The notes under the pieces were generated by a model that was not told the origin of the DNA, ran no database searches, and saw only the letters and a program-made list of their open reading frames with translations. From the sequence record NC_031928.1: a stretch of 64,000 bases of DNA. One strand, written 5' to 3'. The position numbers and the translations under genes are program-made. Origin of the DNA: Escherichia phage WG01. Below are positions 5,827-51,687 of this stretch, in pieces (positions within the stretch are counted from its first letter, which is position 1; every line of letters starts with the position of its first letter).

Positions 5827-6037
5827 TGTAAGTTTCCTTCCAGAAGTCGGTGCCTTCAGCAGTGATTTCACGGAACACTGCATAGATAGGATTTTTATCG
5901 CCTTGATTTTCGTATACATAAACTGACGATAAATGAGAAAACGTATCAGAATGTTCCTTTTGAACCACGATTAAATCAGGGTTGAACAGAACATCTTCAA
6001 ATTCTTCACGAGTAGAGTTCACAGTAACTTTAGCCAT
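5819..6037 (-). CDS. hypothetical protein
   Basis: 72-aa ORF preceded by early-promoter cassette at 6056-6097. Confidence 0.5.
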   Translation of the reverse strand: MAKVTVNSTREEFEDVLFNPDLIVVQKEHSDTFSHLSSVYVYENQGDKNPIYAVFREITAEGTDFWKETYNA

Positions 6038-6055
6038 TTTATTTTCCTCTCATTT

Positions 6056-6097
6056 GTTGATAGGGTAATAGTATCACACTACTACCCTGTTGTATAC
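6056..6097 (-). promoter_or_regulatory. early promoter cassette (variant -35 GTATAC)
   Basis: Conserved motif GTTGATAGG-TA-ATAGTATCA...-35 upstream of 5819..6037. Confidence 0.5.
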
Positions 6098-6109
6098 TGT
6101 TTTTAAACT

Positions 6110-6661
6110 TTATGCAAAATGAATATCAGCATACTCAACAATAAAACTTTCAGGAACTACTTTAAAGGTGCCAAGGAACACGATGTTATACAGCTTAACA
6201 CCTTCTTCAACCCATTGGTCTGTGATGTAACCGGACATACTAGTGGTTTCATAAGTCGGACCGTACTTGCACTTGTATTCAAACGGTTTAGGTGAAACGA
6301 AAAAGACACCTTTACCTAATTTCCATTTGAAATCAACACCAACATGAGATTGGTCAATAGTTTCAACGTCTTGAGCTACTACGCCACGGATATCATTGCT
6401 TTCACACACATACCCATCATGGGATTCAACTTCTTCAACTACAGGAGCGATGTATCCGGTAAATTCAGTCGATTCCAAGAATTTAGGATGCACATAGGCA
6501 AATTCGGTTTCGGTATGGCCATTTTTAGGAATGATACGCACTTTAACTTCTTTAATTCCACCTACTAAATTAGTACGAATACCTGCAACTTCAACAAAAC
6601 GACCCGCGGCTTTTGAGCGAGATTCTTTGGATACACGAACAATTTCACCGATAGTAATCAT
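6110..6661 (-). CDS. hypothetical protein, paralog A of tandem pair
   Basis: 183 aa; C-terminal block ITDQWVEEGVKLYNIVFLGTFKVVPESF shared with the adjacent ORF. Confidence 0.6.
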   Translation of the reverse strand: MITIGEIVRVSKESRSKAAGRFVEVAGIRTNLVGGIKEVKVRIIPKNGHTETEFAYVHPKFLESTEFTGYIAPVVEEVESHDGYVCESNDIRGVVAQDVETIDQSHVGVDFKWKLGKGVFFVSPKPFEYKCKYGPTYETTSMSGYITDQWVEEGVKLYNIVFLGTFKVVPESFIVEYADIHFA

Positions 6662-6692
6662 AATTTTTCTCTCTTGGTTAAAGGTTTATTCT

Positions 6693-6731
6693 CCATGAGA
6701 GCCATTATAACATGGCCCTCGATAAAGTAAA
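6693..6731 (-). promoter_or_regulatory. early promoter (GTTTAC -35, TTATAAT -10) with inverted repeat
   Basis: gtaaac at 6726-6731 and attataa -10 region; flanking ccatgagag/ctccatgag repeat upstream of 6110..6661. Confidence 0.45.
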
Positions 6732-6734
6732 CTA

Positions 6735-7283
6735 TTAATTCAATACATTAACCACTGCACTACGAGGTACTACACTAAAATCACCAGCATGTACAACGTT
6801 CAACAGCTCAACCCCATCTTCAACCCATTGGTCTGTTACCCATCCACAGATAGGATTATCAAAAGGACGACGGATAGACACAGCACGAGTTAGAAGGTCG
6901 GTAGGGCCTTGTTCTTCAACTTCTTGGAACAGGATGAACTCTGCTTCATAAACCAGGGTTTGCTCAATTTTGTTATTGTCTAAACGACGGCCGTGGAGAA
7001 TATAGGCTTTAGAGAACCACTCACTTTTGGCAAATTCTTCAACAATAAATTCGCCTTCGCCAAAAACATCAGTCAGGGTTTTATGGCCGGAAATCAAGGC
7101 CTTAGTTTTAATTTCAGGTTCAACCAGTTTGTAGGTTTTGCCGATTTCGATAGTCTGAGTAGTCATAGTAGGTTCCTTAATTTCCAGTGGTTTAACAGGG
7201 CATACATAAGTGCTTAAAACATCAAAATCAATCAGTTTAGCTGCAGGATTTGGTGTATATTCAGGGTTATAATTAAATTTCAT
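6735..7283 (-). CDS. hypothetical protein, paralog B of tandem pair
   Basis: 182 aa; C-terminal block VTDQWVEDGVELLNVVHAGDFSVVPRSAV shared with 6110..6661. Confidence 0.6.
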   Translation of the reverse strand: MKFNYNPEYTPNPAAKLIDFDVLSTYVCPVKPLEIKEPTMTTQTIEIGKTYKLVEPEIKTKALISGHKTLTDVFGEGEFIVEEFAKSEWFSKAYILHGRRLDNNKIEQTLVYEAEFILFQEVEEQGPTDLLTRAVSIRRPFDNPICGWVTDQWVEDGVELLNVVHAGDFSVVPRSAVVNVLN

Positions 7284-10396: not shown

Positions 10397-11146
10397 TTAA
10401 CCTCTAATCAGTGAAAAAATTGAAGCATTCAGCGGAAGACCTTTTTTCAACTTCATTTTGTCAATAAAAGAAAGGTGTTCTAAACGCTCCAGACCTTGAA
10501 TAATTTTATCATACATATCGTAACGCGTTTCTGCTTCAGACAATTTAAACTTGACACGCCAATCAGGCCCACCAATTAAAGATTTAAGACCCTTTTCCAT
10601 AGTACCTATTGAAGCGTTAGAACCATGGATACGGGCCTTAACCGCGATGACAGAAGGGGTATTATCAGTGGCTCCCGATTTAATAAGGTCCTTAAGACGT
10701 TTTTCACGCTTTTTAAGACCTCTTTGGGTATCTTTAATATTTTTAACTATTTTACGAATTTTATAATAATTATCTGGGGTAACTTTAAAACTATTAGGCA
10801 TTTTAGAACCACCTGAAATACGGGACGCTAAACGAGTCTGTGCACGTTTCAATTCATCTAAAGACAAATCAGCTCGCAACCCGTTGTACTTAACTTTAAC
10901 CGGGATTACATTACCTTCGATATAACCTATATCGTTGTTAAAGCGTTCAAACGAAATCTTATCTTTATCTGAATTCTCATCAAAGCGCTCGCCTGAATAT
11001 GCACACACTTTTTGTTCAAGAAGTCTACGAACGTACTTACTAGACAGGTTAAAGTCCTTACCACGTTTTTTGGCAGAGGCTTTAGTGTGTTCGCGACGTT
11101 TGTAAACCTTTAACTCAAATTCATCGTTAGTTTTAATAGTAGGCAT
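10397..11146 (-). CDS. Srd-like protein (assigned by position and length only)
   Basis: 249-aa basic protein between dda.1 and modA, the T4 srd position; no motif verified. Confidence 0.45.
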   Translation of the reverse strand: MPTIKTNDEFELKVYKRREHTKASAKKRGKDFNLSSKYVRRLLEQKVCAYSGERFDENSDKDKISFERFNNDIGYIEGNVIPVKVKYNGLRADLSLDELKRAQTRLASRISGGSKMPNSFKVTPDNYYKIRKIVKNIKDTQRGLKKREKRLKDLIKSGATDNTPSVIAVKARIHGSNASIGTMEKGLKSLIGGPDWRVKFKLSEAETRYDMYDKIIQGLERLEHLSFIDKMKLKKGLPLNASIFSLIRG

Positions 11147-11175
11147 AATATTTTTCTCATCTTACGGACGATTAG

Positions 11176-11215
11176 CTGATAGGTCTATAGTATCATGTTG
11201 CTCGGTAAAGTAAAC
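11176..11215 (-). promoter_or_regulatory. early promoter cassette (srd-like gene)
   Basis: CTGATAGGTCTATAGTATCA core, gtaaac 11210-11215. Confidence 0.55.
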
Positions 11216-11284
11216 ACTTTTTTGCTTTAAATTTTCGACGGTATAATGAATCAAGGACTTTGCCTTTCAATTAAACCGGGTGGT

Positions 11285-11899
11285 TCAGTAAGAAAGAACG
11301 GAAAGATTCCAAATGGTGTAATTATTCCATTTAGGATTTCTCTCAATAGAGTCTACGCGCAGCGTAGTTCCCGCAGGGAACATCATCTCATCTTCATCAT
11401 TGATTAATTGTAAGTTTGCTACACGGGTAGATTCAGGAAATGCTCCTGGGAACTCTTCAGGGGGCGCAGCACATAACATTTTAAAGATTTCTTCCTGATA
11501 ATTGTACACAAATGGTGCATCATTAATACAAAAGATATTAAATGTGCCGTAGAAGTTATAAGATGCGAAATTCCTTGCCACGTTGAAGTCTTTAGAGAAG
11601 CTCATCACGCGGTCGAATTCAATTACCGCACCTACACACATTGTGGACTCTAGATACTTCATAGTCTTTTTAGATATGCCGCGATAGAGCTTATCAGGCA
11701 CTACAGAAGTCAGGTTCTTACGGATGATTTTGTTCAGAGTTTCCTGGATACAATCTGGTTTATTTTCCATGCACTGCCAGAGGGTACTCTGTTCTAAATC
11801 AGAATACACTTCATCAATTTCTATCTGAGTATTCTCACGGAAATCATCGCATTTGGCATTGTTGATAAATTCTGCTAATTTATGGCTCGGATATAACAT
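11285..11899 (-). CDS. modA: ADP-ribosyltransferase ModA-like
   Basis: 204 aa; R-S-E ART signature (LYRGI, MSFSKD, acidic DEDEMMF) and position next to srd. Confidence 0.7.
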   Translation of the reverse strand: MLYPSHKLAEFINNAKCDDFRENTQIEIDEVYSDLEQSTLWQCMENKPDCIQETLNKIIRKNLTSVVPDKLYRGISKKTMKYLESTMCVGAVIEFDRVMSFSKDFNVARNFASYNFYGTFNIFCINDAPFVYNYQEEIFKMLCAAPPEEFPGAFPESTRVANLQLINDEDEMMFPAGTTLRVDSIERNPKWNNYTIWNLSVLSY

Positions 11900-11912
11900 A
11901 TTATTCTCCTCA

Positions 11913-11954
11913 GTTGATAGAAAGATAGTACCACAAGCTTCCTTGCCTGTAAAC
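11913..11954 (-). promoter_or_regulatory. early promoter cassette (modA)
   Basis: GTTGATAGAAAGATAGTACCA core, gtaaac 11949-11954. Confidence 0.5.
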
Positions 11955-12523
11955 TAAAAATCCAACATTTTTAAATGAATTGTTTTATACTCGATTTCGT
12001 ACGGGTCTCTTTTGACGGTTTCGATTGCAACAATCTCAAACCGAGATAGGCTGGAGACCATGAACTCACATTCAGTTTCGACCATATCATAGAGGTCAAT
12101 ACGAGTTTCATCTATTTCAAGCTCATCCACATTCCCTGCAAGAACAAGGTCGATAGCATGATTGTAGTAGTCGAAAATGAACGGTGCATTCCTGAGACTT
12201 AAAATGGTTTTGGTTCCATATTCCCATGCCCCTGCGAACTGACGAGCCTGAGAGTATTGTGTACTAAAAGAAGTAACGCGACCAGGAGACCATTGACATC
12301 CTACTGAAAGGAGCTCTAATTGCTCAAGTTCTCTGGTAGTAATCCCGCGATATAACTCTACTGGAACCGCTGAAGTAACATGCTTGCGAACCAGTTTGTC
12401 GAGGTCGTAATGGAAGTTAGGGTCCTTTTTAGCATCCAGACATTTTTCTAAAAGATTCTGTTCGTGTTTTGAGAATTTGGAATTGATTCGGTCTTGATAA
12501 AGACATTTTTGTTCGATGTTCAT
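11954..12523 (-). CDS. modB: ADP-ribosyltransferase ModB-like
   Basis: 189 aa; R-S-E ART signature (LYRGIT, TSFSTQ, DELEIDE); paralog of neighbouring modA. Confidence 0.7.
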   Translation of the reverse strand: MNIEQKCLYQDRINSKFSKHEQNLLEKCLDAKKDPNFHYDLDKLVRKHVTSAVPVELYRGITTRELEQLELLSVGCQWSPGRVTSFSTQYSQARQFAGAWEYGTKTILSLRNAPFIFDYYNHAIDLVLAGNVDELEIDETRIDLYDMVETECEFMVSSLSRFEIVAIETVKRDPYEIEYKTIHLKMLDF

Positions 12524-46504: not shown

Positions 46505-47029
46505 TTATGCGAGAACCGTCTTTAAACGCTCTTCAAATTTCTGAAGCAGAGCTTGGCGTTCAGCTCGTTGTGATTTGTACTGCTCGATACGACCTGAAGT
46601 GAGGGCGTACTGTTCGTTTACTGATTCCCGCATGAATTCAGGAATCTCTTTACAAGCTTTGATTTCGTCAAACTTATCAATAACAGCTTGTTGTTCAGCA
46701 ATCAGATTATCGAAATAAGCGATATCAGATTTAACGTTTGCCAGGTCAGATTCGGTAGGCATTAAACGTTTGTTACGTTCAGCTTGATAAGCTTGATTGG
46801 TTTCACGACTCCAGTGAAGAGTACGTTTTTTGTTAGTGTTTTTATAGAGCTCTACAATACCAACTGAATCGATGACAACAATCCAGTTCCAACGGCTTTT
46901 GTAAATCTCTCCTCCAGATACAGTAATCTCATTACCACAAGCAACGTCGTTAAAGAACTTGCTTTGTTTTTCGGATTTGAAATTACCATTGTTATAATTG
47001 ATGAGTGAAAAAATATCTTTAGCGTTCAT
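46505..47029 (-). CDS. hypothetical protein with C-terminal coiled coil
   Basis: 174-aa ORF preceded by promoter cassette 47043-47084. Confidence 0.5.
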   Translation of the reverse strand: MNAKDIFSLINYNNGNFKSEKQSKFFNDVACGNEITVSGGEIYKSRWNWIVVIDSVGIVELYKNTNKKRTLHWSRETNQAYQAERNKRLMPTESDLANVKSDIAYFDNLIAEQQAVIDKFDEIKACKEIPEFMRESVNEQYALTSGRIEQYKSQRAERQALLQKFEERLKTVLA

Positions 47030-47042
47030 GTTAACCTCCAGT

Positions 47043-47084
47043 AGTTGATAGGTCTATAGTATCATTTCTACTGGAGATGTAAAC
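47043..47084 (-). promoter_or_regulatory. early promoter cassette with covarying inverted repeat CTCCAGTAG/CTACTGGAG
   Basis: GTTGATAGGTCTATAGTATCA core, gtaaac 47079-47084. Confidence 0.55.
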
Positions 47085-47086
47085 AA

Positions 47087-47428
47087 CTAATAGAAACTTT
47101 TTTCACCGGCTTGACCACTAAACCAAGCGGATTGGGTGTTCTCTTTCCGTTGGTGTTCAATACGAATGCGATATTCATTCCTGATGGCGCAGAGTTCATC
47201 TCGGAAGTCGCCTGCCAACTTTACCTGCTTATGGTCTAGATTTATTAAGGCCTGGGTCTTCGCGGCCAAGAGCAGTCTCTTGTAGTCTCCTTCTTCACAA
47301 TCGGTTTTATAAACTCTATTAGTATATCCATCGATAAGTTCTTTATCATAGTCCTCGACGGACTGTTTCATAGCTTTGGAAAAAGTCTGACCTGCGTTAT
47401 AAAGATTGTAAATAAATTGTTCAAACAT
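47087..47428 (-). CDS. hypothetical protein
   Basis: 113-aa ORF. Confidence 0.5.
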   Translation of the reverse strand: MFEQFIYNLYNAGQTFSKAMKQSVEDYDKELIDGYTNRVYKTDCEEGDYKRLLLAAKTQALINLDHKQVKLAGDFRDELCAIRNEYRIRIEHQRKENTQSAWFSGQAGEKSFY

Positions 47429-47437
47429 AATTCACCC

Positions 47438-48418
47438 TTATTTCAGAAGTGTAACTTCAGCGATTTCGCTCCAGTCATTTTTATCGGTGGCAATGAAGTC
47501 CGCCAGATAAAGAGCTGTACGTAATGATACGTTACGAAGACGAGATACATTAGCCTTCATCCATGCTAAAGCTTGGTAAGTCTCGGCATCAGTCAGACCA
47601 CGGTTTTGCATCATATCAGTGGACAGGATAACGTCTTCAACACGAACCATAATCTCTTCGTTAGAGTGAACTCCGAGGTCTAAGTAAACTGAACGAGATA
47701 CTAAAGCCTGGAGGTGTGGAGCAAGTTTAGTTCCACGCTCTAATTCACGGTCAATATCAACGTTGGTGATGAACACGATGGTGCCTTCATACTCAAATTC
47801 TTTATCGATATTTTTATCATCAAGATAAGAACTTGAAGTGCTCCAGCACACCTTACGTTTTTCACCAGTATCCAATGCTGCTTTTAACAGGTTCAGGATA
47901 TCCATATCAGAGAATACATCAACATCATCAATAAGAAGAACACTATTAGGGCCGCGGTTATTCCAAAGCTGCTCGTAAAGACCGATTCCACTAATCTTTC
48001 CGTTGATTGATTTATATTCGATAGTTTCATTTTCGTGGGCATTCTGTAATGCTTTATCCAAAGAATATGTTTTACCAATACCTGCGGCACCAGAGATTAT
48101 AAGGGAACGAATTTTACCATCGATGATTCCGTTAGTCATCATGTTCATTACTTTAAAACGTTTGTTGATACGGTGTTTCATTTCTTCAGCGGATTCAGTA
48201 ACCATTGCAGGAGCTGGTGCGCCTTCGGTTTCGATATCACATTTGAATACCCATACACCACGTTCAACACCATCAATCTGTACGAATACCTTGCCATCAC
48301 CGAGGTGAGCTTCGGATTCATGAATTTTGTTAGGGAACCAGGTTTTACCTGAACTCATGAACGTACCAGAGATTTCATTACCGCGATAGATACCTTTGTT
48401 GATTTTGATAGTTAACAT
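47438..48418 (-). CDS. P-loop NTPase (AAA-like)
   Basis: ORF-track ORF trimmed to ATG 48418 (GGAGAA RBS); Walker A ISGAAGIGKTYSL, Walker B VLLIDDVD. Confidence 0.6.
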   Translation of the reverse strand: MLTIKINKGIYRGNEISGTFMSSGKTWFPNKIHESEAHLGDGKVFVQIDGVERGVWVFKCDIETEGAPAPAMVTESAEEMKHRINKRFKVMNMMTNGIIDGKIRSLIISGAAGIGKTYSLDKALQNAHENETIEYKSINGKISGIGLYEQLWNNRGPNSVLLIDDVDVFSDMDILNLLKAALDTGEKRKVCWSTSSSYLDDKNIDKEFEYEGTIVFITNVDIDRELERGTKLAPHLQALVSRSVYLDLGVHSNEEIMVRVEDVILSTDMMQNRGLTDAETYQALAWMKANVSRLRNVSLRTALYLADFIATDKNDWSEIAEVTLLK

Positions 48419-48445
48419 TATATTCTCCATTTCACTCAGTAGATT

Positions 48446-48484
48446 TGATAGGTCTATAATAACATGTTTAAAGCAGATGTACAC
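48446..48484 (-). promoter_or_regulatory. early promoter cassette copy 1 (-35 GTGTAC)
   Basis: TGATAGGTCTATAATAACATGTTTAAAGCAGATGTACAC, near-identical to copy at 48758. Confidence 0.5.
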
Positions 48485-48486
48485 AC

Positions 48487-48717
48487 TTATTTTGCAATAA
48501 TTTCACAGAAGCCATCTTTATAGCGGGCCCATGTTTCACCATTTACTGTATAAAGAGCAGCTTTACGGCCATTAGGCATAACAACTTGTTTACCTTTGTT
48601 TTTAGTTACTGCTTCAATAATTTCGTATTCTTCAGCACGATCAGCTTTAAAGGTATCTTCCAGAGCGATCAAGTTAGTAGTGTAAGAACCGTATTTGTAA
48701 TTTTTGATAGCGTACAT
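48487..48717 (-). CDS. hypothetical protein
   Basis: 76-aa ORF with own promoter cassette copy. Confidence 0.45.
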   Translation of the reverse strand: MYAIKNYKYGSYTTNLIALEDTFKADRAEEYEIIEAVTKNKGKQVVMPNGRKAALYTVNGETWARYKDGFCEIIAK

Positions 48718-48757
48718 TTTTATATCTCCGTTTGGTTTAAGTTTTCAGCTCTTTAGC

Positions 48758-48796
48758 TGATAGGTCTATAATAACATGTTTAAAGCAGATGTACAC
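48758..48796 (-). promoter_or_regulatory. early promoter cassette copy 2 (-35 GTGTAC)
   Basis: Near-identical ~39-bp duplicate of 48446-48484. Confidence 0.5.
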
Positions 48797-48810
48797 TACT
48801 TTTTTGCACT

Positions 48811-48837
48811 AAACCCAAAAAAGGCCCGAAGGCCTTT
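48811..48837 (-). terminator. rho-independent terminator after NTase gene
   Basis: AAGGCC CGAA GGCCTT hairpin followed by T-run on minus strand. Confidence 0.6.
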
Positions 48838-48839
48838 TA

Positions 48840-49850
48840 TCATTTATAATACGAGTTATGGTTTTCTAGGTAAACCTGCTCAACGAACTTGTCCCAGAAC
48901 TTCATGTCTACCTTCTCAGGCATACCGTTCTTGGCCGCCCAGATGGCATTGGTTTCGACTTCATCAACGATAGCTTCAAGTTCGGCCTGTACATCTTTAA
49001 AAGCATGAAGCCCTTGTTTGATTTCAAGGATAAACGGTGCTGTACGTAAAGGATATTGGAGGTCACCTGTTTGATAGATTTCCTTCAACTGGTATCCAGC
49101 ACGATAAGCGTGGCTCAGAGCTTTCCAGTCAATACCTTCGTTAGCTTCAGCTTTACGAGCACGTTCACCATATTCCGCATCAAGCTTATTCAGGGATTGC
49201 TTGAGCTCTGTAATTGATAACGTTGTTTGGTACTTACGTCCGAGAACAGTATAGAACGTTTGCGGACCTGTTTTCTCATGGTTATGGAATACCCATTCAC
49301 AGAACTCATTTTCAGGGAGTCTGTGTTTGATATCTTCTACCTTAGTACGACGAAGTCTATCAGGGATTCCTTCTTGATAATCGACCCACTGTTCAGGAAT
49401 CTGGTTAACAATAGCCAGTACACCACGCAGTGCAGCTAGTCGAGAACCCTTAACACCATATTTAGAAGCTTGCTTACGGACGTACCCTAAATAGGCTTTC
49501 ATGTTAGTCGTATAGAACCGAGAACGATTGTCTTGGATAAATTTCCATACACCAGGTAAATCAGATTTAACCACCAGTTCAGGTGGAGTGTGGAGCATAT
49601 CCAGAGCAACGGTTTCGCCTTCAGCAGCCAGTTTAAAGAAATATTTCAGACTGTAAAGCTCGTGGTCAACATCATCTTTAGTGTTTTTGGAAGCAGTGTT
49701 ATTCGTATTCAGGTTGGTATGGTTCATAGCCGTACCTAACAGAATATCACGCGGATGTGGAACAAAGATTTCTTTAAAATCAACATCAGATTCTGGAGTA
49801 CTTGTTCCATAAAGGTGGCTACCGAAGTAGCCTTTCATAACTGTTCTCAT
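48840..49850 (-). CDS. Pol-beta-type nucleotidyltransferase-fold protein
   Basis: 336 aa; N-terminal GS-x11-DVD motif (FGSHLYGTSTPESDVDF); terminator hairpin downstream. Confidence 0.6.
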   Translation of the reverse strand: MRTVMKGYFGSHLYGTSTPESDVDFKEIFVPHPRDILLGTAMNHTNLNTNNTASKNTKDDVDHELYSLKYFFKLAAEGETVALDMLHTPPELVVKSDLPGVWKFIQDNRSRFYTTNMKAYLGYVRKQASKYGVKGSRLAALRGVLAIVNQIPEQWVDYQEGIPDRLRRTKVEDIKHRLPENEFCEWVFHNHEKTGPQTFYTVLGRKYQTTLSITELKQSLNKLDAEYGERARKAEANEGIDWKALSHAYRAGYQLKEIYQTGDLQYPLRTAPFILEIKQGLHAFKDVQAELEAIVDEVETNAIWAAKNGMPEKVDMKFWDKFVEQVYLENHNSYYK

Positions 49851-50299
49851 TCTTTGTCCTCGAAGTGGATTACCGGACAGACCTTAGATTTACGAGCTTT
49901 AATGTATTGAATAACGATGTTTTCTTTAGTTTCTCGGCCTTCACGCTCAGCTTGAATACGTTGCCATTCCTTTTCTTCTCTACGGGCATCATACCATGCG
50001 TGTAAATTCATCGCACCGAATGCCAAACCAATGGATAGCGCAATAATAAGAGCTATTGCAACCAATCCTAAAACAAACCCTAGACTCAACAGAACAGGGG
50101 TACTTAATACAAAGAAATGCTCTAATACACCAACACCTGCAACAGTTAATCCAAAAAGCGTACTACCTGCAACAACAGCACAAGCAAAACAAGCCCAAAC
50201 CATTTTCCAGAAGTAAGCACACAAAGAGTGTGGTCGAGAATGACGGTCATAAAAACGGTCATGAAGTTTAGCGTGCCAAGAGTTTGCATTGATAATCAT
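49847..50299 (-). CDS. membrane protein
   Basis: 150 aa; 2-3 predicted TM helices; ATGA-coupled to the NTase gene. Confidence 0.5.
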   Translation of the reverse strand: MIINANSWHAKLHDRFYDRHSRPHSLCAYFWKMVWACFACAVVAGSTLFGLTVAGVGVLEHFFVLSTPVLLSLGFVLGLVAIALIIALSIGLAFGAMNLHAWYDARREEKEWQRIQAEREGRETKENIVIQYIKARKSKVCPVIHFEDKE

Positions 50300-50309
50300 A
50301 ATATTTTCC

Positions 50310-50870
50310 TTAAGAGTTCATAGTTGGGATAACAGAGTTCAGATAAGAGACTAAAACTTTTAGTTCGTCTTTAGTAAATACCACTTCACTTTCACCATCG
50401 TGTCTTTGGGTCAAGGATAACAAATCACGGCCCTGATGTTGATACACGGTTAATTCAGTATCATAATTCAGTTCTTCTTCATCACCTTCAAAGGTTTCAC
50501 TAGAACGAATCACGGCATCTTGGCCAGGGACTTTCCATTCAACTTCCGGCTTGCATTCTTCCTGGAACAGTTTGAAAATACAATCAAAGAATTTATCAGA
50601 ATCGCTGATGCTCAGACATTCAATACCATTTTCCAGATTAAACCCGGTTTCATTTTTATAGATATAGGCAAACATATCATCATTGATATCGATAGGAGCA
50701 CTAGCCCGACCGTTAAGATAATCGTGTCTATCTAAAACCATTAAATCATAAAGCGGTTTAATATCAGCGATAGTCAGTACGATTTTATCGTCTTCTTGTG
50801 AAAGCTCAATTGCGTTATTAACTACTTCAGCGGACAGTTCGCCAAACAATTCAGTTGTTTCAATAATCAT
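50310..50870 (-). CDS. hypothetical acidic protein
   Basis: 186-aa ORF. Confidence 0.5.
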   Translation of the reverse strand: MIIETTELFGELSAEVVNNAIELSQEDDKIVLTIADIKPLYDLMVLDRHDYLNGRASAPIDINDDMFAYIYKNETGFNLENGIECLSISDSDKFFDCIFKLFQEECKPEVEWKVPGQDAVIRSSETFEGDEEELNYDTELTVYQHQGRDLLSLTQRHDGESEVVFTKDELKVLVSYLNSVIPTMNS

Positions 50871-50880
50871 TTTCTATTCC

Positions 50881-51078
50881 TCAACGGTTATGTTTTAAAA
50901 TACTATAAAGCTCTTCGACTTGGTCTGCATTCAGACAAATCATATCATTTTCTTGTTGGAGCGTGATTCCACCTTTTTCTTCCCAATCTTTAACAAAGAC
51001 GTCATCGTCAGATTCTTCAACATCTGCTAAAAGGGCAATCACACCATCTTCAGAACAACCATTTGGATCGTATAACAT
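50881..51078 (-). CDS. hypothetical acidic protein
   Basis: 65-aa ORF. Confidence 0.4.
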   Translation of the reverse strand: MLYDPNGCSEDGVIALLADVEESDDDVFVKDWEEKGGITLQQENDMICLNADQVEELYSILKHNR

Positions 51079-51199
51079 TTACAATTTCCTCACTAACCAT
51101 GAAAAGAATAAACCGATTAAAATAGGGCCTATAATCATTGTTGACCAAGCCCAGGGTTCTAAGTAATAAATCATCTTCATGCTCCTATGCCGACAGCCA

Positions 51200-51640: not shown

Positions 51641-51680
51641 TTGATAGGTCTATAGTATCATGTTCCTAGAGGATGTAAAC
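51641..51680 (-). promoter_or_regulatory. early promoter cassette
   Basis: GTTGATAGGTCTATAGTATCA core, gtaaac 51675-51680. Confidence 0.55.
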
Positions 51681-51687
51681 ACCTAAA

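What the first reader, a model, noticed from the sequence alone, without database searches (positions are those of the whole stretch)
47438..50299. Cluster of P-loop ATPase, nucleotidyltransferase-fold protein and membrane protein
A 326-aa Walker A/B ATPase, a 76-aa protein, a 336-aa protein with a canonical Pol-beta NTase motif (GS-x11-DVD) and an ATGA-coupled 150-aa multi-TM protein lie together, bounded by promoter cassettes and a terminator. NTase-fold enzymes in phages can make or cap nucleotide signals or modify nucleic acids; pairing with a membrane protein and ATPase suggests a functional unit, possibly anti-defence or host-takeover.
Basis: partly seen in the sequence, partly recalled or inferred. 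Interest (0 to 1): 0.5.

Follow-up and report, generated by a model that had tools for sequence, protein, structure and literature searches.

The report
T4 nrdC.10–nrdC.11 genes, not a unit
These four neighbouring genes are the already catalogued nrdC.10–nrdC.11 stretch of a T4-like phage; the nucleotidyltransferase belongs to the RlaP RNA-repair family, and the four genes are independent, swappable neighbours rather than one machine.

Summary
The four ORFs are real. The window is a JS98-group T4-like phage (98.7% identical to Shigella phage PSD9).

- **ATPase:** this is T4 NrdC.10, an orphan AAA+ protein.
- **NTase:** this is T4 NrdC.11. It passes the Pfam threshold for RlaP (RNA-ligase-associated Pol-beta NTase) and hits no CD-NTase, MenT or OAS profile.
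- **Transcription:** a terminator and an early promoter, conserved from T4 to JS98, separate the NTase from the ATPase. In this window the promoter is duplicated around the 76-aa ORF, like a PeSL cassette insertion.
- **Linkage:** NTase and ATPase are neighbours only within close T4-like phages (38/47 loci). The link is gone in distant phages (0/23 and 1/23) and in bacteria (0/80). The ATPase block is even replaced in phages whose NTase is 95% identical.
- **NTase context elsewhere:** it sits beside RtcB, Rnl1, Pnkp/Hen1, Ro/TROVE and canonical RlaP.

[quoted passage not shown] This role is already predicted in the literature. The ATPase, the small ORF and the membrane protein are unrelated accessory genes. 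The finding is ordinary and of low interest.

The parts
47438..48418 (-). NrdC.10-type AAA+ ATPase (326 aa): N-terminal beta domain (about 1-65), AAA+ core with Walker A 110-117, Walker B 164-167 and sensor-1 N219, then a helical lid
48446..48484 (-). Early-promoter cassette, copy 2 (GTGTACA-N16-TATTAT with TG extension), directly upstream of the ATPase
   Evidence: Exact 39-nt repeat; promoter scan hit; single-copy equivalent in IME08, IME281 and T4
48487..48717 (-). 76-aa ORF of unknown function, a sporadic occupant of the nrdC.11-to-nrdC.10 slot
   Evidence: phrog_33156 E 2e-18; absent from IME08, IME281 and T4; homologues at 51-65% identity in the same slot in L030, L042, L045 and L047
48758..48796 (-). 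Early-promoter cassette, copy 1; together with the upstream hairpin it forms a PeSL-like terminator-promoter element
   Evidence: T4-type PeSL consensus TTTACW-N17-TAYWAT from PMC4122927
48819..48838 (-). Intrinsic terminator hairpin (AAAAGGCC-TTCG-GGCCTTTT plus T run) ending the transcription unit that contains the NTase
   Evidence: the hairpin-plus-T-run is kept at the same position in JS98, IME08, IME281 and T4, with the stem sequence differing in IME281 and T4
48840..49850 (-). NrdC.11-type 'long' RlaP-family Pol-beta nucleotidyltransferase (336 aa); catalytic residues G10, S11, D22, D24, D60
   Evidence: Pfam PF10127 42.5 bits against a cut-off of 23; 28/28 diverse members hit RlaP only; invariant residues; hhalign to canonical RlaP 85%, E 6e-6 over the N-terminal core; RNA-repair neighbours elsewhere
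49847..50299 (-). 150-aa membrane protein (RB69 ORF104c-like); its stop overlaps the NTase start (ATGA)
   Evidence: phrog_944 E 4e-57; hydropathy; abuts the NTase in only 10/79 loci; T4 and VR26 have the mobD homing endonuclease at this junction
47087..47428 (-). 113-aa DUF7203 ORF starting 10 nt after the ATPase stop; it shares the ATPase's transcription unit and is lost together with it in VR-type relatives
47056..47083 (-). Next early promoter of the same family (TTTACA-N16-TACTAT), marking the downstream end of the ATPase + orf113 unit
51647..51682 (-). Nearest upstream early promoter of the same family; likely start of the multi-gene unit that ends with the membrane gene and the NTase

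Best explanation
The region is the nrdC.10-nrdC.11 segment of the variable nrdC-mobD region of a JS98-group (Dhakavirus) T4-like phage. It is a row of independently evolving early genes, not one system.

(1) The 336-aa protein is the T4 NrdC.11 orthologue, a divergent 'long' member of the RlaP family (PF10127). Inferred mechanism, taken from the biochemistry of bacterial RlaP: it uses NTPs and a divalent metal (Mn2+ preferred in bacterial RlaP) to add one or two nucleotides, without a template, to the 3'-OH of broken RNA. The main target would be tRNA 5' halves whose end nucleotide was removed by 'smart' anticodon nucleases such as RloC. The phage's own Pnkp first heals the ends, and Rnl1, both encoded about 85 kb away, then seals them. 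This would be a counter-defence by RNA repair.

(2) The 326-aa protein is NrdC.10, an orphan ring-type AAA+ ATPase with its own promoter. Its substrate is unknown and it has no detectable functional tie to the NTase.

(3) The 76-aa ORF is an accessory gene lying between two copies of the nrdC.10 early promoter, a PeSL-type cassette arrangement.

(4) The 150-aa membrane protein is a lineage-specific accessory gene that is merely co-transcribed and translationally coupled with the NTase in this genus.

Shown here: gene identities, family membership, the catalytic motif, transcription signals, and linkage statistics. Inferred: the RNA substrate, the in vivo role, and co-operation with Pnkp/Rnl1.
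For: Identity: 98.7% DNA identity to phage PSD9 and about 93% to JS98, where the genes are annotated nrdC.10 and nrdC.11.

RlaP membership: Pfam score above the gathering threshold. All 28 members down to 30% identity hit RlaP and no other NTase family. G10, D22, D24 and D60 are invariant and S11 nearly so. They align with the invariant G37, S38, D49, D51 and D82 of canonical RlaP.

RNA-repair context: 6 of 15 distant phage lineages have RtcB or Rnl1 within 5 kb, against 1 of 21 ATPase lineages (Fisher p = 0.013). phiN3 places the gene among two RNA ligases, a peptidyl-tRNA hydrolase, a macrodomain protein and a CCA enzyme. Bacterial loci carry canonical RlaP (19 loci), RtcB (10), Hen1 (7), Pnkp (7), Ro/TROVE (6) and T4-type PNKP (5) next to it. 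JS98 encodes pseT, rnlA and stp.

Biochemistry of bacterial RlaP and the RloC-antidote model: bioRxiv 10.64898/2025.12.29.696909. Phage RlaP prediction: PMC7824862.

Not a unit: the terminator plus promoter between the NTase and the ATPase is conserved from T4 to JS98. Linkage is 38/47 in close loci, 0/23 and 1/23 in distant loci, and 0/80 in bacteria. The ATPase + orf113 block is replaced in VR-type phages with 94-95% identical NTase. orf76 is present or absent among near-identical genomes. The membrane gene abuts the NTase in only 10/79 loci, and a homing endonuclease occupies that junction in T4 and VR26.
Against: No activity of any NrdC.11-type protein has been measured; the preprint lists T4 NrdC.11 as 'unknown function'.

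Only the N-terminal half matches RlaP. The C-terminal half has no detectable similarity to canonical RlaP, so substrate and product could differ.

In T4-like phages the gene is not next to any RNA ligase (0 of 45 loci of at least 50% identity), and the window has no ligase, PNK or tRNA gene.

The NTase structure model was too poor to test the fold.

NTase and ATPase are adjacent in about 80% of close T4-like loci, so a clade-specific co-operation cannot be strictly excluded.

The RNA-ligase queries used for the association test came mostly from NTase neighbourhoods, which biases the control comparison.
Confidence: 0.7

Rival explanations
1. ATPase, NTase and membrane protein form one anti-defence or host-takeover module in which the NTase makes, caps or depletes nucleotide signals (CD-NTase, OAS or cGAS-like chemistry), and the ATPase and membrane protein act with it.
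For: The genes are adjacent and on the same strand. The membrane gene and NTase are translationally coupled. NTase and ATPase are neighbours in 38/47 close loci. All are early-promoter-driven accessory genes, and the T4 block from nrdC.11 to mobD.3 is dispensable on a laboratory host.
Against: No match to CD-NTase, SMODS, OAS or Mab21 models in Pfam at E up to 0.1 for the window protein or up to 0.01 across 28 family members, nor in PADLOC. A terminator and a promoter separate the NTase from the ATPase. The genes are unlinked in distant phages and in bacteria. The ATPase is lost, and the membrane gene detached, in close relatives. NTase neighbours elsewhere are RNA ligases and end-healing enzymes, not signalling or effector genes.
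Confidence: 0.04
2. The NTase is an offensive enzyme rather than a repair enzyme. Like MenT-type toxins, it would add nucleotides to intact host tRNA or rRNA 3' ends to block charging or translation as part of host shut-off.
For: Bacterial RlaP also labels full-length tRNA and rRNA in total E. coli RNA and has little NTP specificity. The gene lies in an early transcription unit.
Against: There is no MenT/AbiEii profile match. Co-location with RtcB, Rnl1, Pnkp/Hen1 and Ro/TROVE recurs in both phages and bacteria, which is the signature of repair. Bacterial chromosomes carry the gene without an antitoxin-like partner but with a second RlaP.
Confidence: 0.07
3. A clade-specific partnership. Within Tevenvirinae only, the AAA+ NrdC.10 assists NrdC.11, for example as an RNA or ribosome remodeller that exposes damaged RNA ends, even though the two are transcribed separately.
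For: Adjacency in 38/47 (NTase-centred) and 39/45 (ATPase-centred) close loci. One distant ATPase lineage sits near an Rnl2-type RNA ligase. One distant locus (L142) has both genes 6.4 kb apart.
Against: Many neighbouring genes are equally syntenic in T4-like genomes. VR-type phages keep a 95%-identical NTase without the ATPase. Aeromonas- and Vibrio-type phages keep the ATPase without the NTase nearby. In other phages the ATPase lies next to replication or nucleotide-metabolism genes: ribonucleotide reductase, glutaredoxin and topoisomerase in VH7D, primase/helicase in BUDD, and an SF2 helicase in four or five lineages.
Confidence: 0.1

Closest known systems
T4 NrdC.11 / RlaP family (Pfam PF10127, RNA-ligase-associated Pol-beta nucleotidyltransferase)
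   Same: 82% identical to T4/T2 NrdC.11. Passes the Pfam gathering threshold. Same G-S...DxD...D catalytic core as canonical RlaP. Same genomic company of RNA ligases and end-healing enzymes in distant phages and bacteria.
   Different: About 70-80 residues longer than canonical RlaP (about 260 aa). Only the N-terminal half matches the model; the C-terminal half, with a variable beta-rich insert around residues 150-210, is not detectably homologous. Bacteria often carry both forms in tandem, which implies non-redundant roles. In T4-like phages it is not adjacent to a ligase. No biochemistry exists for this subfamily.
T4 NrdC.10 (orphan AAA+ ATPase, phrog_1250)
   Same: 78% identical to T4 NrdC.10 and 99% to JS98. 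AAA+ fold with Walker A, Walker B, sensor 1 and lid.
PeSL (promoter-early stem-loop) mobile regulatory cassettes of T4-type phages (Arbiol et al. 2010, PMC2839356; PMC4122927)
   Same: A stem-loop terminator is followed by a T4-type early promoter in a variable region. Duplicated copies flank an ORF that is present or absent between near-identical genomes.
   Different: Only the promoter part is duplicated here; the hairpin is single. The recombination event itself is inferred, not observed.
T4 Pnkp/Rnl1 tRNA repair pathway against the PrrC anticodon nuclease
   Same: The proposed role of NrdC.11 feeds into this pathway. JS98 encodes pseT, rnlA and stp. 5'-phosphate ligases accept the 3'-OH end that an RlaP product would carry.
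   Different: NrdC.11 is not part of the experimentally defined pathway, and its involvement is a prediction.
CD-NTase/cGAS, OAS and MenT/AbiEii nucleotidyltransferases
   Same: They share the Pol-beta fold superfamily motif hG[GS]...DxD.
   Different: No profile match. The gene neighbourhoods are different.

Membership tests
RlaP (Pfam PF10127) | Score against the curated family HMM at or above the gathering threshold | tested here: met
   42.5 bits against a cut-off of 23, E 8e-11. 28/28 diverse homologues hit RlaP. The match covers only model positions 25-143 of 249.
RlaP (Pfam PF10127) | Pol-beta NTase catalytic core: G-S, DxD and a third carboxylate | tested here: met
   G10, D22, D24 and D60 are invariant and S11 nearly invariant over 28 sequences of 30-82% identity. 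They align to G37, S38, D49, D51 and D82 of canonical RlaP.
RlaP (Pfam PF10127) | C-terminal helical domain, with a terminal helix packing on the NTase domain (PfRlaP crystal structure) | tested here: inconclusive
   hhalign finds no match beyond residue 91. AF2 predicts a confident helical C-terminus (213-335), but the N-terminal domain is unmodelled. No RlaP chain was found in the PDB copy by sequence or fold.
RlaP (Pfam PF10127) | Genomic association with RNA ligases or RNA-repair genes | tested here: met
   Met for the subfamily: 6/15 distant phage lineages plus phiN3, and many bacterial loci with RtcB, Pnkp/Hen1, TROVE or PNKP. Not met locally: no ligase in the window or within 10 kb in T4-like loci. 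Partners lie about 85 kb away in JS98.
RlaP (Pfam PF10127) | Adds 1-2 NMP to RNA 3'-OH, with Mn2+ preferred | not testable with these tools
   Known only for Pseudomonas RlaP.
CD-NTase / cGAS-OAS-like signalling NTases | Profile match to SMODS, CD-NTase, OAS or Mab21 models | tested here: not met
   No such Pfam hit at E up to 0.1 or in any of 28 members. No PADLOC hit at E up to 0.01.
MenT / AbiEii toxin NTases | Profile match, and a toxin-antitoxin gene pair | tested here: not met
   No Pfam or PADLOC match. No antitoxin-like partner recurs among the neighbour families.
AAA+ ATPases | Walker A, Walker B, sensor 1, conserved arginines, alpha/beta core plus helical lid | tested here: met
A specific AAA+ clade (MoxR, MCM, NtrC, clamp loader, Cdc6/ORC) | A clearly best structural or profile match to one clade | tested here: inconclusive
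PeSL cassette | Stem-loop terminator followed by an early promoter, in a variable region, flanking ORFs that differ between close relatives | tested here: met
   consensus from PMC4122927.
Conserved operon / functional gene cluster | Linkage kept across divergent genomes, and co-transcription | tested here: not met
   0/23 and 1/23 distant phage loci and 0/80 bacterial loci. Internal terminator and promoters. Independent loss or replacement of each member.

The most novel reading that the evidence does not exclude
The NrdC.11-type 'long' RlaP is functionally distinct from canonical RlaP, as bacteria keep both side by side. Its divergent C-terminal half would give it a different RNA-end specificity. 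In T4-like phages it would be the missing step that lets the classical Pnkp/Rnl1 pathway defeat nucleotide-excising anticodon nucleases such as RloC, which were thought to be repair-proof.
Probability: 0.3. Interest if true: 0.55.

Novelty: already known. Interest (0 to 1): 0.2.

Why it matters
As found, it matters little. The genes are 96-100% identical to deposited phage proteins, they carry T4 gene names, and the NTase family and its predicted RNA-repair role in phages are already in the literature.

The useful outcome is negative. The apparent 'ATPase + NTase + membrane' module is a synteny artefact of a variable T4 region and should not be pursued as a new anti-defence system.

What remains of value is that no NrdC.11-type enzyme has been tested experimentally. 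T4 and JS98 are tractable models for asking whether phage RlaP counters RloC-type nucleases. NrdC.10 is a widespread phage AAA+ protein (1,310 phage records) with no known function.

Tried and rejected
1. **Structure-based test of the NTase fold.** The AF2 model built from a 21-sequence, at least 68%-identical alignment was poor (pLDDT 66; residues 1-65 below 50). Foldseek against the PDB gave only noise.

2. **PDB sequence and profile searches for an RlaP structure.** Nothing relevant was found. The PfRlaP crystal structure from the preprint was not retrievable.

4. **DUF7203 (orf113) as a constant partner of the ATPase.** It holds only for relatives of at least 90% identity, so it was rejected.

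5. **Canonical RlaP in the window or in phage loci.** None was found.

6. **The cassette as a MotA-dependent middle promoter.** It contains TGCTTTA, but by my own reading of the sequence the spacing to the -10 element does not fit. It fits the T4-type early/PeSL consensus instead.

7. **Burroughs & Aravind 2016 (PMC5062991).** The paper is not held, so its content is cited only through PMC7824862 and the 2025 preprint.

8. **tRNA genes, RNA ligase or PNK in the window.** None was found.
Full report
**What the window is.** The region 47000-50900 is 98.7% identical to Shigella phage PSD9 and about 93% identical to Escherichia phage JS98 (Straboviridae, Tevenvirinae, Dhakavirus), and it matches 558 phage records. 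In the JS98 RefSeq record the same genes are annotated as follows. The ATPase is nrdC.10. The NTase is nrdC.11, with product 'nucleotidyltransferase'. The multi-TM protein is 'membrane protein, similar to RB69 ORF104c'. The next gene upstream is mobD.1. The finding therefore lies in the T4 nrdC-mobD region.

**Check of the observation.** All four ORFs are present on the minus strand, and all belong to conserved phage protein families: phrog_1250 (E 8e-163), phrog_33156 (2e-18), phrog_388 'nucleotidyltransferase' (1e-132) and phrog_944 'membrane protein' (4e-57). The ATPase has invariant Walker A (GAAGIGKT), Walker B (DDVD), a sensor-1 asparagine and conserved arginines in 30 homologues of 53-99% identity. 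The ATGA overlap between the membrane gene and the NTase is real. The membrane protein has one hydrophobic stretch of about 75 residues, roughly 28-103, between a basic N-terminus and a strongly charged C-terminal tail.

**Regulatory anatomy.** Directly after the NTase stop lies a GC-rich hairpin followed by a T run (48819-48838; -12 kcal/mol, z -2.4). It is followed by a 39-nt sequence, GTGTACATCTGCTTTAAACATGTTATTATAGACCTATCA, containing a -35-like TGTACA, a 16-nt spacer and a TG-extended TATTAT. This sequence occurs exactly twice in the 64-kb window, with none expected by chance, and the two copies flank the 76-aa ORF.

An alignment with relatives shows that hairpin-then-promoter between nrdC.11 and nrdC.10 is conserved in JS98, IME08, IME281 and T4. 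IME08, IME281 and T4 have a single promoter copy and no 76-aa ORF. This matches the published 'PeSL' (promoter-early stem-loop) cassettes, which mediate modular gene shuffling in the variable regions of T4-type genomes. The published T4-type consensus is TTTACW-N17-TAYWAT (PMC4122927).

Promoters of the same family also lie at about 47083, after the 113-aa DUF7203 ORF that follows the ATPase, and at about 51682. The membrane gene starts 10 nt after mobD.1, and orf113 starts 10 nt after the ATPase stop. The inferred transcription units are therefore:
- a unit from about 51682 through mobD.1, the membrane gene and the NTase, ending at the terminator;
- the 76-aa ORF on its own promoter copy;
- the ATPase and orf113 together.

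**The NTase.** It passes the Pfam gathering threshold for RlaP, the 'RNA repair pathway DNA polymerase beta family' (PF10127; 42.5 bits against 23), over residues 8-135. The only other NTase model in the list is a sub-threshold NTP_transf_2 hit.

A profile search of 1.84 billion cluster representatives finds a large full-length family: 1,142 clusters at E up to 1e-30. Across 28 members down to 30% identity, G10, Y14, G15, S21, D22, D24, N56, D60, Q127, K134, G135, R230, H247 and R250 are invariant. All 28 members hit RlaP and no other NTase family. PADLOC, which holds CBASS cyclase models, gives nothing for the NTase.

A profile-profile comparison with canonical bacterial RlaP (243.7 bits to PF10127) aligns only the N-terminal catalytic core (85% probability, E 6e-6). 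In that alignment D22, D24 and D60 pair with the invariant D49, D51 and D82 of canonical RlaP. The C-terminal half gives no match. The NrdC.11 type is thus a divergent 'long' RlaP subfamily.

The AF2 model was poor in the catalytic domain, and its fold search returned noise.

**What RlaP does.** A December 2025 preprint (10.64898/2025.12.29.696909) reports on two Pseudomonas RlaP enzymes:
- They add one or two NMPs to RNA 3'-OH ends. DNA, protein and 3'-phosphate ends are not substrates.
- They prefer Mn2+.
- They favour the broken end of a cleaved-tRNA mimic.
- They partly restore aminoacylation of a tRNA that had lost one anticodon-loop nucleotide.

The authors propose RlaP as the antidote to 'smart' ribotoxins such as RloC. 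They place T4 NrdC.11 in a separate cluster of the family and call its function unknown. An earlier comparative study states that RlaP is the most prevalent such NTase in jumbo phages, mirrors the distribution of RNA ligases, and is predicted to restore nucleotides removed by RloC-type nucleases before ligation (PMC7824862).

**Independent test of the RNA-repair association for the NrdC.11 subfamily.** I clustered all ORFs within 4 kb of NTase homologues below 50% identity in IMG/VR contigs. The most recurrent neighbour families, confirmed by Pfam, were RtcB, T4 Rnl1-type RNA ligase, an ATP-dependent ligase, an HD + AAA_33 kinase and a Zeta/AAA_33 kinase.

After dereplication at 70% identity, 6 of 15 lineages have an RNA ligase within 5 kb. 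For ATPase-centred distant lineages the figure is 1 of 21 (Fisher p = 0.013). One caveat applies: most ligase queries came from NTase neighbourhoods.

Sinorhizobium phage phiN3 places its NrdC.11 among two RNA ligases, a peptidyl-tRNA hydrolase, a macrodomain protein and a tRNA nucleotidyltransferase.

Among 80 loci taken from bacterial and archaeal genome assemblies, recurrent neighbours are:
- a canonical RlaP, in most cases starting about 20-30 nt downstream of the long form (19 loci);
- RtcB (10);
- Hen1 (7);
- Pnkp (7);
- Ro60/TROVE (6);
- T4-type PNKP (5);
- HD_4 (7).

In T4-like phages themselves there is no ligase within 10 kb, and the window has none. However, JS98 encodes pseT (Pnkp), rnlA (Rnl1) and the PrrC activator Stp about 85 kb away.

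The family occurs in 1,310 phage records, including Vibrio, Aeromonas and Acinetobacter T4-like phages and several jumbo phages. In the jumbo phages the match starts near residue 75-88, so the N-terminal domain is missing.

In distant phages its neighbours are replication or nucleotide-metabolism genes. In Vibrio phage VH7D these are ribonucleotide reductase, glutaredoxin and the topoisomerase II medium subunit. In Xanthomonas phage BUDD it is a primase/helicase. In four or five environmental lineages it is an SF2 helicase. Its function remains unknown. The most that can be said is that it is a ring-type AAA+ remodeller that does not depend on the NTase.

**Linkage test.** The counts below use ±10-kb loci with at least 3 kb of sequence on both sides.

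| Centre gene | Identity to the window protein | Loci with the partner gene |
|---|---|---|
| NTase | at least 90% | 5/8 |
| NTase | 70-90% | 11/11 |
| NTase | 50-70% | 22/28 |
| NTase | below 50% | 0/23 |
| ATPase | at least 90% | 6/6 |
| ATPase | 70-90% | 22/23 |
| ATPase | 50-70% | 11/16 |
| ATPase | below 50% | 1/23 |

The single distant case with both genes is L142, where they are 6.4 kb apart. None of the 80 bacterial loci has the ATPase, the membrane protein or the 76-aa ORF.

Even among very close relatives the genes behave independently:
- In VR-type Dhakaviruses (L011, L012, L044; NTase 94-95% identical) the ATPase + orf113 block, which is what lies between two promoter cassettes, is replaced by unrelated small ORFs.
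- The 76-aa ORF is present or absent between near-identical genomes. It recurs at 51-65% identity in the same slot in four other lineages.
- The membrane gene abuts the NTase in only 10 of 79 loci.
- In L011 a 254-aa ORF separates the membrane gene from the NTase, and the VR26 record annotates a mobD homing endonuclease under that match. T4 also has mobD at the nrdC.11/mobD.1 junction and has no homologue of the membrane gene there.

A genome-reduction study removed the T4 block from nrdC.11 to mobD.3 without loss of viability (PMC9825161).

**Conclusion.** The interpretation as one functional unit, and the suggested CD-NTase, MenT or OAS affinity, are not supported. The NTase is a known, named family member (T4 NrdC.11, RlaP) whose most likely job is nucleotide restoration at damaged RNA 3' ends ahead of ligation. 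That is a counter-defence role, but one already predicted in the literature and still untested for this subfamily. The ATPase is the equally well catalogued but functionally unknown NrdC.10. The small ORF and the membrane protein are variable accessory genes in a PeSL-structured variable region. Novelty: already known. Interest: low.

Noticed in passing
L184, L191, L192, L194, L198, L201, L203, L205, L208, L210, L211, L214, L223, L232, L233, L237, L239, L240 (long NTase at about 6001-6955 in most, canonical RlaP starting about 6954-7065); L202 has the canonical RlaP farther away on the other strand: In 19 of 80 bacterial loci, mostly Alphaproteobacteria, the NrdC.11-type 'long' RlaP is accompanied by a canonical 260-aa RlaP. 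In 18 of them it starts about 0-110 nt (typically 20-30 nt) downstream. RtcB, Pnkp/Hen1 or Ro/TROVE are often nearby. Such a tandem pair suggests that the two forms have non-redundant roles or act together.
   Followed up: partly
L011, L012, L044 (about 11000-12250), compared with window 47087-48484: In VR-type Dhakaviruses the ATPase + DUF7203 block is replaced by unrelated small ORFs. One of these is a 100-aa protein whose C-terminus (SAWFSGENTERTFN) resembles the end of the window's 113-aa ORF. The replaced block corresponds to one promoter-cassette-bounded module.
   Followed up: partly
GenBank records listed: Many deposited phage records name both NrdC.10 and NrdC.11 homologues 'thioredoxin', apparently carried over from the nrdC gene-name prefix. 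Neither protein has any thioredoxin-family hit, so this is a widespread annotation error.
   Followed up: yes
window 51079-51174 (-): There is a 31-aa hydrophobic ORF (MIYYLEPWAWSTMIIGPILIGLFFSWLVRKL) whose stop abuts the start of the next gene (TAAATG). It may be a small membrane peptide in the same early transcription unit as the NTase.
   Followed up: no
L066, L070, L072, L074-L080, L085 (0-420 nt from the NTase): In the RtcB-associated phage lineages an ATP-dependent ligase (Pfam DNA_ligase_A_M, motif KLNGVR) abuts or overlaps the NTase gene, with RtcB 1.6-2.4 kb away. These phages thus place two different ligases beside the NTase.
   Followed up: partly
L141-L167 and jumbo-phage hits H141-H144: Distant NrdC.10 homologues (27-41% identity, including jumbo phages K64-1 and Erwinia pEa_SNUABM_50) match only from about residue 75-88 onward. 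They therefore lack the N-terminal beta domain of the T4-type protein. An SF2 (ResIII/DEAD) helicase lies within 1-4.5 kb in four or five lineages.
   Followed up: partly
window 11182-11217, 47048-47083, 48446-48484, 48758-48796, 51647-51682 (all on the minus strand): A family of near-identical early promoters ends in ...ATG(A/T)TA(C/T)TATAGACC(TATCA). The conserved sequence extends past the -10 element, which suggests a conserved start-site or 5'-leader motif.
   Followed up: partly
L004 (Sinorhizobium phage phiN3), 826-20963: A 20-kb stretch gathers a peptidyl-tRNA hydrolase, a macrodomain protein, a metallophosphoesterase, two RNA ligases, the NrdC.11-type NTase, a Nudix hydrolase and a CCA-adding enzyme. 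This looks like a concentrated RNA-repair and translation-rescue island.
   Followed up: no
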